Positions 42,566 through 47,432 of a stretch of 64,000 bases of DNA are shown one piece after another. Each line of letters opens with the position of its first letter. Position 1 is the first letter of the stretch. Source of the DNA: Escherichia coli (GTDB taxonomy: Bacteria > Pseudomonadota > Gammaproteobacteria > Enterobacterales > Enterobacteriaceae); assembly GCF_030013595.1 (NCBI RefSeq), contig NZ_CP122768.1; one strand, given 5' to 3'. The position numbers were made by a program, and so were the translations under genes. The notes beneath the pieces were generated by a model. That model did not search any database. It was not told where the DNA came from and saw only the letters and a list, made by a program, of their open reading frames with translations.

Positions 42566-44152
42566 TTAATGCTCGCGGGTCTGGTGGAACTGAACGTCCG
42601 GATAACGTTCCTGCGCCAGACGCAGGTTGACCATGCTGGTAGCGATGTAAGCGAGGTTATCGCCGCCATCAAGCGCCAGTTGGCTTTCGTTCTTACGCTT
42701 GAACTCTTCGAATTTCTTCGCGTCCGCACATTCTACCCAGCGGGCAGTGGCAACGTTGACTGACTCATACACTGCTTCAACGTTGTATTCGCTCTTCAGG
42801 CGCGCTACCACCACATCAAACTGCAGCACACCAACTGCACCAACGATCAGGTCGTTGTTGGAGATCGGACGGAACACCTGCACCGCGCCCTCTTCGGAAA
42901 GCTGTACCAGCCCTTTGAGCAGCTGTTTTTGCTTCAGCGGATCTTTCAGGCGGATACGACGGAACAGTTCCGGTGCGAAGTTCGGAATACCGGTGAACTT
43001 CATCATCTCCCCCTGGGTAAAGGTGTCACCGATCTGAATAGTGCCGTGGTTGTGCAGGCCGAGGATATCGCCCGGATACGCTTCTTCAACGTGCGAACGG
43101 TCGCCCGCCATAAAGGTCAGCGCGTCGGAGATCACCACATCTTTCGCGGTGCGCACCTGGCGCAGCTTCATGCCTTTTTCATATTTACCGGATACCACGC
43201 GCATAAACGCCACGCGGTCGCGGTGTTTCGGGTCCATGTTGGCCTGAATTTTAAATACGAAGCCGGTAAATTTGTCTTCGCTCGCTTCTACGGTACGGGT
43301 ATCAGTCTGACGCGGCATCGGCGCAGGTGCCCACTCCACCAGGCCATCCAACATATGATCGACGCCGAAGTTACCTAGCGCAGTACCGAAGAATACCGGA
43401 GTGATTTCGCCCGCAAGGAATAATTCTTTGTCGAACTCGTTAGACGCGCCTTTCACCAGTTCCAGTTCGTCACGCAGCTGCTGCGCCAGATCTTCACCAA
43501 CCGCAGCATCGAGATCCGGGTTATTCAGCCCTTTAACAATGCGGACTTCCTGAATGGTGTGGCCTTTACCACTCTGATAAAGATAGGTTTCATCTTTATA
43601 AAGGTGGTAAACGCCTTTAAACAGCTTGCCGCAGCCAATCGGCCAGGTGATCGGCGCACAGCCGATTTTCAGCTCGTTCTCAACTTCATCGAGCAGTTCC
43701 ATCGGGTCGCGGATATCACGGTCAAGTTTGTTCATAAAGGTGAGGATCGGCGTGTCACGCAGACGGGTAACTTCCATCAGCTTGCGGGTACGATCTTCAA
43801 CACCTTTTGCGGCGTCGATAACCATCAGGCAGCAGTCCACCGCCGTCAGGGTACGATAGGTATCTTCCGAGAAGTCTTCGTGCCCCGGGGTGTCGAGCAG
43901 GTTAACCAGGCAATCGTGATACGGAAACTGCATCACAGACGTAGTAATGGAGATCCCACGCTGCTTTTCCATCTCCATCCAGTCCGACTTAGCGTGCTGG
44001 TTGGAACCACGGCCTTTTACTGTACCGGCGGTCTGAATGGCCTGTCCGAACAGCAGCACCTTCTCGGTGATGGTAGTCTTACCGGCGTCTGGGTGAGAAA
44101 TAATTGCAAAGGTTCTTCTTTTCGCTACCTCTGCGGCCAAAAGGCTTGTCAT
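42566..44152 (-). CDS. prfC: Peptide chain release factor 3
   Basis: Translation [40 protein letters not shown] (GTPase G1); track ORF starts at an upstream TTG (44179). Confidence 0.9.
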
Positions 44153-44171
44153 AATTGTTGTCTCGTTGATT

Positions 44172-44288
44172 ATGTACAATCATATGTACAAAGAAAAATT
44201 CATGCCGCTGATTGTACATTTTGGAGGTATCAGAGCATAGCAGAACATGATCAGTAGGTGTATTTGTAGCCAAAGCTCATTTGTACAT
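44172..44288. repeat. Cluster of four TGTACA-core repeats near the prophage-host junction
   Basis: ATGTACAA at 44172-44179 and 44184-44191; inverse TTGTACAT at 44212-44219 and 44281-44288. Confidence 0.35.
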
Positions 44289-44305
44289 GCCGCAATCTTC
44301 GTTCT

Positions 44306-44356
44306 ATTGACACTGTTTATTCACCCAGTTAAAAATAAGACTGTATACAAACACAG
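44306..44356 (+). promoter_or_regulatory. SOS-type promoter with LexA box upstream of the dinI-like gene
   Basis: Consensus -35 TTGACA (44306-44311); CTGT-N8-ACAG box CTGTATACAAACACAG (44341-44356); RBS GAGGG (44361-44365). Confidence 0.6.
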
Positions 44357-44371
44357 TATAGAGGGAATTTT

Positions 44372-44648
44372 ATGCGTATTGAGATCTGCATAGCCAAAGA
44401 GAAAATGACTAAACTGCCAAACAGCGCTGTGGATGCGTTAGAAGGAAGAATTAACCCGACGCACCGGTAAGCGTTATGAAGATGTAGAGGTGATCGTAAA
44501 AGCCACCAGCAATGATGACCTTTCTGTTACACGCACCGCCGATAAAGATTCAGTTAAAATTTTTGTTCAGGACACTCTGAAAGATACCTAGGAATTTGCT
44601 GACGAGTGATTTAGTTCATCATCTCTGGACACAATTCACTTGTATTGA
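44372..44648 (+). pseudogene. dinI-like gene with one frameshift and two stops at Trp positions
   Basis: Frame 1 [23 protein letters not shown] ends at TAA after a 1-nt frame slip near 44441; next frame continues [49 protein letters not shown], then TAG (44589-44591), EFADE, TGA (44607-44609), FSSS; the two stops sit where DinI proteins have the TWESADDWF tryptophans. Confidence 0.65.
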
Positions 44649-44674
44649 CTTTAAGATCATTAAATTGTAATAAT
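44645..44674 (+). promoter_or_regulatory. Candidate sigma-70 promoter for the leader/SLATT/RT transcript
   Basis: -35 TTGACT (44645-44650), 18-nt spacer, extended -10 TGtAATAAT (44666-44674); predicted start near 44681. Confidence 0.45.
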
Positions 44675-44680
44675 TCAAAA

Positions 44681-44815
44681 GGATGGGGCAGTTTTTTCCT
44701 CTTGCGTATGCAAGGGCGGCTCTGATAATGAACAGTAATATTTTACTGTTGAGCTTATGCTCACTGATCCTGCCGAGCAGGATGTTCAACGGTTCCAATA
44801 TATCCTGCCCCTTCC
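44681..44815 (+). ncRNA. Candidate structured leader or ncRNA upstream of the SLATT-RT operon
   Basis: 11-nt inverted repeat GGATGGGGCAG (44681-44691) and CTGCCCCTTCC (44805-44815), 10 of 11 bp, enclosing four hairpins: 44701-44714 (5 bp), 44731-44750 (8 bp), 44751-44762 (4 bp), 44767-44783 (7 bp). Alternative reading is a leaderless 51-codon N-terminal extension from ATG 44683. Confidence 0.35.
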
Positions 44816-44835
44816 GCTTTTTAAAAGGATATTTT

Positions 44836-45387
44836 ATGCATGAAAATATTTGGTTTACATATAAAGCCCGTATTCAAGCGCACCATAGACTAGAATGGCT
44901 TGAAAAACACTCTCAATTTATCCTCGTTTGGTATGCTATATTGAGTGCGGTACTTTCAATTATAACGTTACGATTTCCAAAATTTCTAGGAGATAATACA
45001 GATATCGTTGCGGCAATACTTTCAGTGGCTCTACTGGGTATTTCTCTGATCGTATCTAACCTAGATTATCGTGGTCGAGCAATAGCCATGAGAAGGAATT
45101 ATATTGCACTACAGAGACTCTATTTTGATATTAATAACGGCCAACAGTTAACTCTTGAACAGAAAGAAAAATATTTTAATTTGCTCAATGAGGTTGAGAA
45201 TCATCGTGACATAGATGATAAAGTTTCAAGGGTAACTCAAGTTGGACTTACGACTAGACTCCCCACACAAAAAGAAAAAATAATTGTTAAATTATGGATA
45301 TTACGTCGAATGTTTATTACTGTCGGCCTTTATATCCTCCCATTAATATGTCTTTGGATTGACTATGAATGCAAGCAGAGTTTTTAA
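44836..45387 (+). CDS. SLATT-like multi-TM protein (putative membrane effector)
   Basis: ATG 44836 with RBS AAGGA (44824-44828, 7-nt spacer); 183 aa; two adjacent hydrophobic helices (FILVWYAILSAVLSIITL, IVAAILSVALLGISLIVSNL) flanked by amphipathic helices, plus C-terminal MFITVGLYILPLICLWI; stop 45385-45387 overlaps RT start. Confidence 0.7.
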   Translation: MHENIWFTYKARIQAHHRLEWLEKHSQFILVWYAILSAVLSIITLRFPKFLGDNTDIVAAILSVALLGISLIVSNLDYRGRAIAMRRNYIALQRLYFDINNGQQLTLEQKEKYFNLLNEVENHRDIDDKVSRVTQVGLTTRLPTQKEKIIVKLWILRRMFITVGLYILPLICLWIDYECKQSF

Positions 45388-46735
45388 AAAGTCATTCTCG
45401 AAAAAAAACCTTCTAAAAGTATACAATGAAAAAATCAAAGAATCAGGAGCGATTGGCATAGATCGGATTCGTCCATCAAAACTTGATTTAACAATAAAGA
45501 ATGAGATCACTTTTATTTTTGAAAAGGTTAATTGTGGAAATTATAAATTTACAGCATATAAAGAAAAATTAATATCTAAAGGGGCTAACTCTATCCCCAG
45601 ACAGATTTCCATACCAACTGCCAGGGACAGAATTACCCTTAGGGCTCTCTGTGAATGCCTTACAGAAATATATCCTAACTCCAGATTAAAACTACCACAT
45701 ACAGTAATTGACTTATTGAAAAATGCATTAAACAGCGATCTATATGCTGAATATGCAAAAATAGATCTCAAAAGTTTCTATCCTTCAATTGAACATAAAT
45801 TGATATTTAATGCAATAAAAAATAAGATTAGAAAAAAAGAAATTAGGCAGTTAATAACATCATCATTAATCGTGCCTACTGTAAGTGGAAGTACAGGAAG
45901 CAAAGGTGTCCCTAATAATACCAGAGGAGTACCTCAGGGGTTAGCAATATCAAACATTTTAGCTGAAATATCACTATCTGATTTCGACAATGAAATCAAT
46001 AAAATGCATGACATATGGTACATGCGATACGTTGATGACATTCTTATTTTAACGCAAAAAGATCAAGCAACAAAAATTGCATCTCATATCATTGATAAGC
46101 TTCAATCATTAAATTTAAACCCACATCCATTAAATGAAGAGAACTCAAAATCCAAAGTAGGCAGCTTGGATGAAAGTTTCAACTTTTTGGGCTACCACAT
46201 AAAAAATCGAGAATTATTGATAAAACATGAGAGCATTCTTAGATTTGAGTCATCCTTAGCAAAAATTTTTACTGCATATAGACACGCTCTACTACAAGCT
46301 AAAAATAAGCGCGATAAAGAACGAGCTGTTGCATATTGTCAGTGGAAACTAAATCTTAGAATTACGGGGTGTGTGTTTGAAGGTAAACGATTGGGATGGG
46401 TATCGTACTTCTCACAAATAACGTCAACAGCTCAACTTCGAGCTGTTAATCATACGATCAATAATCTTATCCGCCGATTCGGCCTTTCATCAGAAATAAA
46501 ACCAAAGTCTTTGATTAAAACTTTCTATGAACTCCGCAGGGGTAGAGCGGAGACTTTTAAATACATACCTAACTTTGACAATCTACATATATCTCAGAAA
46601 CGAGAAATTGTTTCTATGTGGATAGGGAAAGAGAATGAAAAAAAACTTAGCAATAGTGAAATAGAGAGAAAATTTAAATTTAAAATTGCGAAATCAGTAA
46701 AAGAGCTTGAAGAGGACATTTCAGGGATATCATAG
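45365..46735 (+). CDS. Reverse transcriptase (RT domain plus ~170-aa C-terminal extension), family unassigned
   Basis: RT motifs in order: GIDRIRPS...IPRQISIPTARDRITLRAL, YAKIDLKSFYPSI, GVPQGLAISNILAEISLSDFD, YMRYVDDILIL (YVDD at 46028-46039), FLGYHI; ATG 45365 (track ORF starts at TTG 45359); AT-rich. Confidence 0.85.
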   Translation: MNASRVFKKSFSKKNLLKVYNEKIKESGAIGIDRIRPSKLDLTIKNEITFIFEKVNCGNYKFTAYKEKLISKGANSIPRQISIPTARDRITLRALCECLTEIYPNSRLKLPHTVIDLLKNALNSDLYAEYAKIDLKSFYPSIEHKLIFNAIKNKIRKKEIRQLITSSLIVPTVSGSTGSKGVPNNTRGVPQGLAISNILAEISLSDFDNEINKMHDIWYMRYVDDILILTQKDQATKIASHIIDKLQSLNLNPHPLNEENSKSKVGSLDESFNFLGYHIKNRELLIKHESILRFESSLAKIFTAYRHALLQAKNKRDKERAVAYCQWKLNLRITGCVFEGKRLGWVSYFSQITSTAQLRAVNHTINNLIRRFGLSSEIKPKSLIKTFYELRRGRAETFKYIPNFDNLHISQKREIVSMWIGKENEKKLSNSEIERKFKFKIAKSVKELEEDISGIS

Positions 46736-46847
46736 ATATGTAATCCATTAAATCCTTTATATATAAAGCAATAAACACACTATTTAAATTCACAAATCAG
46801 CCGCAGTATCCTGCCATGACAAGTTGCTGCGGCATATCACAAAACGA

Positions 46848-47432
46848 TTACTCCATAACAGGGACCGCAGGCCACTCAATATCAGGTGCAGTTGATGTAT
46901 CAACACGGTTCAGCAACACCCGATACTTTTTCCAGGCTTCCAGCAATGAGTTTTCTTCCTCCGTTGCGATTTCCAGATCTACAGCATCCTGAAGTGGCGC
47001 AATATGCTCACTGGCTACCTGCATCAGGTTGTTTTTTGTTTCTTCCGCCTCCCGGATCCGGAACAGTTTTTCTGCTTCCGTATCCTTCAACCAGGCTGTG
47101 CCGTTCCACTTCTGATATTCCCCTTCCGGCGATAACCAGGTAACATTTTCCGGTAACGGACCGAGTTCAGAAATAAATAACGCGTCGCCGGAAGCCACGT
47201 CATAAACCGTTTTACCCCGATGATCTTCAACGAGATGCCACGATGACTCATCACTGTTGAAAACAGCCACGAAGCCAGCCGGAATATCTGGCGGTGCAAT
47301 ATCGGTACTGTTTGCTGGCAGACCTGTATGAGGCGGAATATATGCGTCACCTTCACCAATAAATTCATTAGTTCCGGCCAGCAGATTATAAATTTTTATG
47401 GTCCGTGGTTGTTCACTCATTCTGAATGCCAT
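46848..47432 (-). CDS. tfa: Tail fiber assembly protein Tfa
   Basis: 194-aa [61 protein letters not shown]; reads as lambda Tfa. Confidence 0.9.

What the first reader, a model, noticed from the sequence alone, without database searches (positions are those of the whole stretch)
44306..44648. dinI-like gene inactivated by a frameshift and two Trp-to-stop codons while its SOS promoter and LexA box remain intact, directly upstream of the RT module
The promoter has a perfect -35 TTGACA and a canonical LexA box CTGTATACAAACACAG, but the coding sequence needs a 1-nt frame correction near 44441 and carries TAG (44589-44591) and TGA (44607-44609) exactly where the DinI family has its conserved tryptophans (TWESADDWF versus T*EFADE*F). 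Both stops are G-to-A changes from TGG. No terminator is apparent between this decayed gene and the SLATT-RT operon 190 nt downstream, so DNA damage could drive read-through transcription into the RT module. Two identical-type lesions at functionally equivalent codons is unusual for random decay.
Basis: partly seen in the sequence, partly recalled or inferred. Interest (0 to 1): 0.5.

Follow-up and report, generated by a model that had tools for sequence, protein, structure and literature searches.

The report
Decayed prophage dinI gene beside DRT10
This is an ordinary, already-annotated dead copy of a phage dinI gene whose "odd" stop codons are explained by common mutation bias, and it sits just upstream of a known anti-phage reverse-transcriptase system (DRT10) that has its own promoter and guide RNA.

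Summary
Compared with intact alleles, the dinI-like gene at 44372-44612 carries a +1 G (44441), TGG>TAG (44590) and TGG>TGA (44609). The -35, -10 and LexA box are intact. NCBI's PGAP already annotates this allele as a frameshifted DinI-like pseudogene.

The "unusual" double Trp-to-stop is not unusual. Four of the six transition routes to a stop in this ORF lie in the two TGG codons. The TAG sits at the gene's only Dcm site (CCTGG), a classic deamination hotspot. Nine of 15 lineage-specific substitutions are GC>AT.

An apparent intermediate allele has both stops and the deletion but no frameshift, so the frameshift probably came last.

The "RT module" is DRT10 (UG17 RT, SLATT and ncRNA), an allelic variant of the published Eco3DRT10. 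The 190-nt "gap" holds its promoter (44645-44674) and 137-nt ncRNA (44681-44817).

dinI is a conserved backbone gene next to attP in lambdoid phages, flanking a variable cargo slot. No canonical terminator follows dinI, so SOS read-through into DRT10 is possible but untested, and it is not specific to the decayed allele. Low interest.

The parts
44307..44336 (+). sigma-70 promoter of the dinI-like gene: -35 TTGACA (44307-44312), 18-nt spacer, -10 AAAAAT (44331-44336). Homology between prophages at different att sites starts at the -35, so this is essentially the prophage end.
   Evidence: 10/12 match; conserved across alleles; upstream sequence differs between the prfC, yecD and ssrA sites
44341..44356 (+). 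LexA (SOS) box CTGTATACAAACACAG, between the -10 and the Shine-Dalgarno sequence
   Evidence: unique; 0/100 shuffles for the 18-mer with at most 3 mismatches; invariant in six of seven alleles; CFT073 has two substitutions but keeps the CTG-N10-CAG core; precedent for LexA control of prophage dinI homologues, PMC3121763
44372..44612 (+). dinI-like pseudogene: remnant of an 82-codon ORF (PGAP pseudo-CDS = 44372-44591)
   Evidence: repaired translation 88% identical to 82-aa DinI-like proteins carrying PF06183
44441..44441 (+). +1 G insertion (frameshift at codon 24; the shifted frame stops at TAA 44468-44470). Probably the latest lesion.
   Evidence: absent from the otherwise identical alleles L008/L009
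44589..44591 (+). TAG replacing Trp73 TGG. The G>A is at the methylated position of the only Dcm site (CCTGG>CCTAG) in the ORF.
44607..44609 (+). TGA replacing Trp79 TGG (G>A)
44612..44613 (+). junction of an 8-bp deletion (GTTCATTA) that removes codons 81-82 and part of the native stop
44645..44674 (+). DRT10 promoter: TTGACT, 18 nt, TG-AATAAT (extended -10). It places the transcription start at about 44681.
   Evidence: 10/12 match with a TG before the -10; 100% conserved in all DRT10-bearing alleles; the published ncRNA is independently transcribed from its native promoter
44681..44817 (+). DRT10 ncRNA (137 nt): a basal stem (GGAUGGGGCAG...CUGCCCCUUCC) enclosing four stem-loops and a template loop, followed by U5 (44818-44822)
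   Evidence: MFE -54.2 kcal/mol, z = -4.2. The residue numbers in Tang et al. (U15, U62-64, U110, C116, A117, U119) all fit when position 1 = 44681. The IHE3034 allele carries the published Eco3DRT10 template CAAUGAUUC-CAAU.
44787..44799 (+). template A-B-A' of the ncRNA (nt 107-119): CAAC-GGUUC-CAAU here, against CAAU-GAUUC-CAAU in Eco3DRT10 (U110C, A112G)
44836..45387 (+). SLATT (SLATT_5) effector gene, 183 aa
   Evidence: RTasSLATT 2.8e-57; PF18160; an identical protein is listed in Tang et al. Table S1 with 'ncRNA associated TRUE'
45365..46735 (+). UG17/DRT10 reverse transcriptase, 456 aa, YVDD motif, C-terminal Ser456. It overlaps SLATT by 23 nt.
   Evidence: RT_UG17 8.3e-159; sequence ...YVDD......SGIS end; Ser456 is the priming residue of Eco3DRT10

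Best explanation
The region is the terminal backbone gene of a lambdoid prophage: a LexA-regulated dinI-like gene lying directly inside the att junction next to prfC. In this allele lineage it has died by ordinary neutral decay.

The first disabling hits were probably the C-terminal ones. These are a TGG>TAG change at a Dcm 5-methylcytosine deamination hotspot, a TGG>TGA transition and an 8-bp deletion. A +1 frameshift probably followed later (inferred from an intermediate allele). The promoter and LexA box look intact simply because the lineage is young and because the promoter segment recombines with intact prophage backbones.

Immediately 3' of dinI begins a variable cargo slot. Here it holds a complete DRT10 defence system: its own promoter, a 137-nt ncRNA, SLATT and a UG17 RT. 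This system is an allelic variant of the experimentally characterised Eco3DRT10 and is expressed from its own promoter.

The dead dinI has no demonstrated role in DRT10. SOS-induced transcripts from its promoter may run into DRT10, because no canonical terminator intervenes, but that is inference only.
For: Lesions and annotation:
- The lesions were verified against intact alleles.
- PGAP already calls the gene a frameshifted pseudogene.

Mutation spectrum:
- The ORF offers only 6 transition routes to a stop, and 4 of them lie in the two TGG codons.
- The probability of one nonsense hit in each Trp codon is 0.05-0.09 at a realistic transition weighting, and 0.22 if only transitions count.
- The TAG lies in the only CCWGG site.
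- Of 15 lineage-specific substitutions, 9 are GC>AT, 6 of them G>A.

Relaxed constraint:
- dN/dS is 0.47 for dinI, against 0.30 for the linked SLATT, 0.13 for the linked RT, and about 0.05-0.26 (mostly 0.05-0.15) between intact dinI alleles. dS is similar in all three genes (0.125-0.184).

Order of lesions:
- An intermediate allele (72-aa product P0009; loci L008 and L009) has both stops and the deletion but no frameshift.

Independent decay:
- dinI is independently frameshifted in CFT073, which has no DRT10.

Backbone and cargo layout:
- dinI is conserved next to int/attP in phage cdtI and Stx phages.
- The cargo varies: DRT10, hypothetical genes, espM2/espW, ydfK/pin and cdtABC/cif.

DRT10 identity:
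- PADLOC gives RT_UG17 at 8e-159 and RTasSLATT at 3e-57.
- The ncRNA fold has z = -4.2.
- The published Eco3 template and residue numbering match.
- An independent ncRNA promoter is reported and is found at 44645-44674.
Against: - Under a uniform model, 2 or more of 6 G>A changes landing on the 4 stop-making G positions has P = 0.04. The coincidence is therefore mildly improbable, though the test is post hoc and ignores the Dcm hotspot.
- The frameshift-free intermediate comes from two assemblies with adjacent accession numbers. One of them (L008) has homopolymer deletions in the RT, so an assembly error cannot be fully excluded. L009 is clean, and the G is not in a homopolymer.
- No expression data were examined. 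The activity of either promoter in this strain is inferred from sequence and from published work on close relatives.
Confidence: 0.85

Rival explanations
1. The retained SOS promoter is functional and selected. After DNA damage, LexA cleavage fires P_dinI, and transcription reads through the dead gene into the ncRNA-SLATT-RT unit. This makes DRT10 dosage SOS-inducible.
For: - dinI and DRT10 are in the same orientation, and no intrinsic terminator or stable structure lies between 44560 and 44700.
- The promoter has a perfect -35 and a strong LexA box.
- DRT10 activity is tied to ssDNA metabolism through SbcB and an SSB-like trigger, which gives a conceivable link to SOS.
Against: - DRT10 has its own conserved promoter, positioned exactly for the ncRNA 5' end fixed by the published residue numbering, and a related system's ncRNA is independently transcribed from its native promoter.
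- Neither DRT10 paper mentions SOS, LexA or dinI.
- Conservation of the promoter is uninformative, because the pseudogene block is identical across genomes.
- In other phages the cargo after dinI is on the opposite strand, for example cdtABC and espM2. P_dinI is therefore not a general cargo driver.
- The arrangement is the same with intact dinI.
Confidence: 0.15
2. Loss of DinI was adaptive. It removed a RecA modulator that interfered with the prophage or with DRT10, for example because the DRT10 ssDNA products engage RecA.
For: - There are four independent lesions in a 249-bp gene.
- The allele is widespread: at least 76 complete genomes and two att sites.
- dinI is also dead in CFT073.
Against: - Roughly 100 complete genomes keep an intact dinI directly upstream of the Eco3-type DRT10.
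- The CFT073 pseudogene has no DRT10 next to it.
- Once the first lesion occurs, multiple further lesions are expected.
- Non-polar dinI deletions in Gifsy prophages had no significant effect on induction.
Confidence: 0.05
3. The stops are sequencing errors, programmed recoding, or RT-mediated (DGR-like) targeted mutagenesis.
For: Both stops replace the same amino acid, and an RT gene lies nearby.
Against: - The sequence is identical in at least 76 complete genomes from many projects.
- The frameshift and the 8-bp deletion rule out a translatable recoded ORF.
- There is no template/variable repeat pair around the RT.
- DGR mutagenesis targets adenines, not G>A.
- The RT is UG17, not a DGR RT.
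Confidence: 0.01

Closest known systems
DinI-like family proteins (Pfam PF06183) of lambdoid phages, e.g. WP_001217550.1 (E. coli IHE3034 prophage) and YP_001272543.1 (phage cdtI 'RecA filament binding protein DinI')
   Same: - Same gene, in the same position next to attP/int.
- Same promoter and LexA box.
- The repaired translation is 88% identical over all 82 residues, and both Trp are conserved.
   Different: - This allele is dead: a +1 frameshift, two nonsense codons and an 8-bp deletion.
- It also carries about 10 lineage-specific amino-acid changes.
Eco3DRT10 (UG17 RT OKX54664, SLATT and 137-nt ncRNA; Tang et al. 2025, PMC12632851)
   Same: - Same architecture and length.
- The ncRNA numbering fits exactly.
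- The RT is 456 aa and ends in the priming Ser456.
- SLATT and RT overlap.
- The IHE3034-type allele at the same locus has the published CAAUGAUUC-CAAU template.
   Different: - The window allele is about 94-95% identical at the DNA level (dS 0.15-0.18).
- It has two template substitutions (U110C, A112G), so the predicted cDNA repeat is GAACCGTTG rather than GAATCATTG.
LexA-regulated dinI-antirepressor-irsA operon of Salmonella Gifsy prophages (Lemire et al. 2011, PMC3121763)
   Same: - A prophage dinI homologue is preceded by a promoter and a LexA box.
- It is followed by co-oriented genes.
   Different: - The location in the prophage is different.
- No antirepressor ORF follows dinI here.
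- The downstream unit is a defence system with its own promoter.
- The Gifsy LexA boxes are preceded by terminator-like palindromes; that feature was not examined here. Here the prophage end lies directly upstream of the -35.
Amber-mutation hotspots at Dcm sites (5-methylcytosine deamination at CCWGG; classic lacI work, recalled from memory)
   Same: The change CCTGG>CCTAG is exactly the C>T product at the methylated inner cytosine of the complementary strand.
   Different: The second stop (TGG>TGA at 44609) is not in a Dcm site. It is a plain G:C>A:T transition.

Membership tests
DinI family (PF06183), as a pseudogene | Full-length sequence similarity to DinI-like proteins | tested here: met
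   The repaired translation hits 82-aa DinI-like proteins at 88% identity and E = 2e-39. All hits carry PF06183. DNA identity to intact alleles is 90-94%.
DinI family (PF06183), as a pseudogene | Uninterrupted ORF encoding the C-terminal acidic helix with the two Trp | tested here: not met
   There is a +1 G at 44441, TAG at 44589, TGA at 44607 and an 8-bp deletion after 44612. It is therefore a pseudogene, as PGAP annotates it.
DinI family (PF06183), as a pseudogene | SOS (LexA) control | tested here: inconclusive
   The sequence motif is present, well placed and conserved. LexA binding and induction could not be tested here.
DRT10 / UG17 defence system | UG17-clade reverse transcriptase with a YVDD catalytic motif | tested here: met
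   RT_UG17 scores 8.3e-159 over the full-length profile. YVDD is present in the ORF.
DRT10 / UG17 defence system | Adjacent, overlapping SLATT_5 gene (SLATT-RT order, subtype A) | tested here: met
   RTasSLATT scores 2.8e-57. The PF18160 hit is on the identical gene in L008/L009. The overlap is 45365-45387.
DRT10 / UG17 defence system | Structured ~137-143-nt ncRNA immediately upstream of SLATT, with a basal stem and internal stem-loops | tested here: met
   The fold has z = -4.2, with a basal stem and four stem-loops. The published residue numbers fit. No covariation test was possible, because the alleles are too similar.
DRT10 / UG17 defence system | [quoted passage not shown] | tested here: met
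   The template CAAC-GGUUC-CAAU lies at nt 107-119, 3 nt after SL5. A and A' match at 3 of 4 positions. The fourth position is reported as tolerant.
DRT10 / UG17 defence system | Tandem-repeat cDNA synthesis and phage defence | not testable with these tools
   This is shown only for the close relative Eco3DRT10.
LexA-regulated dinI-led operon (Gifsy type) | Small antirepressor gene downstream of dinI in the same transcript | tested here: not met
   Cargo begins about 6 nt after the dinI stop. The only features before SLATT are a promoter and the ncRNA.
Diversity-generating retroelement (considered as a cause of the stops) | Template/variable repeat pair and adenine-specific changes | tested here: not met
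   No such repeats occur in 44200-47000. The changes are G>A. The RT is UG17.

The most novel reading that the evidence does not exclude
The LexA-controlled dinI promoter, kept at the prophage end whether or not dinI itself is alive, feeds SOS-induced read-through transcription into the DRT10 ncRNA-SLATT-RT unit. DNA damage or accumulation of phage-derived or cDNA-derived ssDNA would then raise DRT10 dosage through RecA and LexA. This would be a feed-forward link between the SOS response and a telomerase-like defence RT.
Probability: 0.12. Interest if true: 0.45.

Novelty: already known. Interest (0 to 1): 0.12.

Why it matters
It matters little as a discovery. The pseudogene is already flagged in RefSeq, and the adjacent system is the published DRT10.

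The useful outcomes are corrective:
- The apparent "targeted" Trp>stop pattern is a textbook effect of codon structure, transition bias and a Dcm hotspot.
- The supposed empty spacer contains the DRT10 promoter and ncRNA.
- The dinI gene marks the fixed edge of a cargo slot in lambdoid prophages, which variously carries DRT10, T3SS effectors or Cdt toxin.

The only open question worth an experiment is whether SOS-induced transcription from P_dinI reaches DRT10.

Tried and rejected
- **Intact or partly decayed ancestor in complete genomes.** I searched 5,426 complete E. coli genomes with a "repaired" query. The best hit was 97.1% identical, which is the fully decayed allele, so there was no intermediate there. 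The protein search then found a 72-aa intermediate in two other assemblies.
- **Rfam scan of 44150-47000.** No curated family covers the ncRNA. The only hits were a partial IS009 match in the tail-fibre-assembly gene and a chance miRNA hit.
- **Terminator scans.** Scans after dinI in the window and in three other prophages found nothing relevant. Folding 44560-44700 gave no significant structure (z = -0.13).
- **My first reading of the template.** I initially read it as an 8-nt GUUC-AACG-GUUC register. I dropped this once the numbering in Tang et al. showed that the canonical 9-nt register is preserved with a tolerated fourth-base mismatch.
- **DGR-like mutagenesis.** No repeats were found.
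- **Literature on a dinI/tail-fibre-assembly defence hotspot.** The search returned nothing relevant.
- **Sequenced phages.** None carries this DRT10 module. Only the dinI segment matches.

Full report
**Context**

The window is E. coli chromosome. The genes yjjU, ytjA, osmY and prfC (42566-44179, minus strand) are followed by the end of a lambdoid prophage. Reading rightwards from prfC, the features are:
- a dinI-like gene (44372 onwards, plus strand);
- a SLATT gene (44836-45387);
- a reverse transcriptase (45365-46735);
- on the minus strand, a tail-fibre assembly gene, a tail-fibre gene and further tail genes.

**Check of the observation**

The intact allele in E. coli IHE3034 encodes an 82-aa DinI-like protein (WP_001217550.1), ending ...KDTWESADEWFVH. 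Aligned against it and five other alleles, the window carries these lesions:
- an extra G at 44441;
- TGG>TAG at 44589-44591 (Trp73);
- TGG>TGA at 44607-44609 (Trp79);

The promoter and LexA box are present as described:
- The promoter is TTGACA, 18 nt, AAAAAT at 44307-44336.
- The LexA box is at 44341-44356.
- CTGT-N8-ACAG alone is expected about 0.8 times per window. The 18-mer within 3 mismatches of the palindromic consensus is unique and appeared in none of 100 shuffles.
- The box is invariant in six of the seven alleles aligned; the independently decayed CFT073 allele has two substitutions in it but keeps the CTG-N10-CAG core.

The lesions are real. The stretch from dinI to SLATT is at least 99% identical in 76 complete genomes. 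PGAP annotates it as 'DinI-like family protein, frameshifted' in IAI39 and in Ecol_AZ146.

**Is the pair of Trp>stop changes unusual?**

It is not. The ORF offers 32 single-base routes to a stop, but only 6 are transitions, and 4 of those lie in the two TGG codons.

With transitions weighted 4-8 fold, the chance that two nonsense hits fall one in each Trp codon is 0.05-0.09. The observed allele differences are 14 transitions to 3 transversions. If only transitions are counted, the chance is 0.22.

The TAG arose in CCTGG>CCTAG, the only Dcm site in the gene. That change is what deamination of the methylated cytosine on the opposite strand produces. This rests on established knowledge recalled from memory.

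Polarising the substitutions with five intact alleles gives 15 changes specific to this lineage. Nine are GC>AT, and six of those are G>A. Even under a uniform model, 2 or more of 6 G>A changes falling on the four stop-making G positions has P = 0.04. That figure is post hoc and ignores the hotspot.

**Depth and order of decay**

Synonymous divergence from the IHE3034-type allele is similar for all three genes: dinI 0.125, SLATT 0.149 and RT 0.184. The dN/dS ratio is 0.47 for dinI, against 0.30 for SLATT, 0.13 for the RT, and about 0.05-0.26 (mostly 0.05-0.15) between intact dinI alleles. This indicates relaxed constraint on dinI while the linked defence genes stayed under purifying selection.

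A search of complete genomes with a repaired query found no intermediate. Its two source assemblies (L008 and L009, both at the prfC site) match the window across dinI, including TAG, TGA and the deletion, but lack the G at 44441.

L009 has no other indel in 8 kb, and the G is not in a homopolymer. L008 has two A-run deletions in the RT. The frameshift is therefore probably the most recent lesion, with the caveat that the two assemblies have adjacent accession numbers and may share a pipeline.

**What the neighbourhood is**

The same pseudogene-plus-DRT10 block also occurs in a prophage at yecD. There the SLATT gene is identical and the RT differs at 2 positions. Homology to the window starts exactly at the -35 hexamer. 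The promoter spacer differs at several positions, while the gene body is identical. The block has evidently moved between prophage backbones by recombination.

The dinI-like gene itself is in about 1,500 of 5,426 complete genomes. It is also in sequenced lambdoid phages (phage cdtI, Stx phages), where it lies next to int/attP.

Homology stops about 6 nt after the dinI stop. What follows varies between prophages:

| Strain or phage | Cargo after dinI |
|---|---|
| Window, IHE3034 | DRT10 |
| UTI89 | two hypothetical genes |
| O157 | espM2/espW, with espM2 and the gene fragment next to dinI on the opposite strand |
| CFT073 | ydfK and a recombinase; dinI independently frameshifted |
| Phage cdtI | cdtABC and cif, on the opposite strand |

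So dinI is the fixed edge of a cargo slot, not a component of the RT module.

**The RT module is DRT10**

PADLOC profiles give RT_UG17 (8.3e-159) and RTasSLATT (2.8e-57). UG17 has been characterised as DRT10. It is a three-part system of ncRNA, SLATT and RT, which makes protein-primed tandem-repeat cDNA (PMC12632851; bioRxiv 10.64898/2026.04.29.721553).

The evidence that the 190-nt 'gap' is occupied:
- It contains a strong promoter-like site, TTGACT-18-TG-AATAAT, at 44645-44674.
- Starting at 44681, an RNA folds into a basal stem enclosing four stem-loops (MFE -54.2 kcal/mol, z = -4.2). This matches the published description.
- With position 1 set at 44681, every residue number quoted by Tang et al. 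fits: U15, U62-U64, U110, C116, A117 and U119.
- The IHE3034-type allele carries CAAUGAUUC-CAAU at nt 107-119, which is the published Eco3DRT10 template.
- The RT ends in Ser456, the published priming residue.
- The window's SLATT protein is listed in their Table S1 with an associated ncRNA.

The window allele differs in the template at two positions, U110C and A112G. It reads CAAC-GGUUC-CAAU. Given the published tolerance of the fourth A position, I predict GAACCGTTG repeats.

**Read-through**

No canonical terminator or stable structure lies between the dinI remnant and the DRT10 promoter. None follows dinI in three other prophages either. Transcripts from P_dinI could therefore enter DRT10. 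In Gifsy prophages a dinI homologue does head a LexA-regulated operon.

Several points weigh against a special role:
- DRT10 has its own promoter, and a related system's ncRNA is independently transcribed.
- The ncRNA ends in a stem plus U5, directly before SLATT.
- Neither DRT10 paper mentions SOS, LexA or dinI.
- The arrangement is identical when dinI is intact.

Read-through is thus a plausible, untested side effect. It is not a feature linked to the decay.

**Verdict**

The feature is an ordinary, already-annotated pseudogene beside a known defence system. The one speculative element, SOS input into DRT10, needs transcript mapping.

Noticed in passing
window 44787-44799 (ncRNA nt 107-119); L002 4615-4627; L008 equivalent of 44791: The DRT10 template differs between near-identical alleles. 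The window reads CAAC-GGUUC-CAAU and the Eco3/IHE3034 type reads CAAU-GAUUC-CAAU. L008 has a further G111A. I predict GAACCGTTG cDNA repeats instead of the published GAATCATTG. An alternative GUUC-AACG-GUUC (8-nt) register is also created.
   Followed up: partly
window 44300-44312; L003 about 5000; L006/L007 about 3930: Homology between prophages at prfC, yecD and ssrA begins exactly at the -35 hexamer of the dinI promoter. The promoter therefore abuts the att junction, and everything upstream of -35 is host DNA in the lysogen (int/attP in the free phage, L010).
   Followed up: partly
window 44805-44822: The ncRNA's GC-rich basal stem closes at CUGCCCCUUCC and is followed by GC-UUUUU, only 14 nt before the SLATT start codon. 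This looks like a terminator or attenuator that SLATT-RT transcription must pass. The IHE3034 allele has U4 instead of U5.
   Followed up: no
window 46891-47000 (minus strand): An Rfam IS009 (candidate sRNA) match scores 119.9 bits against a gathering score of 117. It lies inside the 3' part of the tail-fibre assembly gene and was cut off by the end of my search range.
   Followed up: no
L007 4001-4248 (E. coli CFT073, ssrA-site prophage): An independent frameshifted dinI-like pseudogene, with changes in the promoter and LexA-box region as well. Recurrent loss suggests that dinI is dispensable in resident prophages.
   Followed up: partly
L005 4696-6587 (E. coli UTI89, prfC-site prophage): Two co-oriented hypothetical genes (344 and 252 aa) occupy the same cargo slot as DRT10. 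They may be an uncharacterised defence or moron cassette.
   Followed up: no
L008 equivalents of window 45401 and 45832: The RT of assembly GCA_974498255.1 is broken by two single-A deletions in A7-A8 runs. These are either assembly errors or real inactivation of DRT10 in that strain.
   Followed up: no
L004 1267-2852 (E. coli MS20654): prfC (release factor 3) is annotated as frameshifted in this blood isolate, next to the prophage.
   Followed up: no
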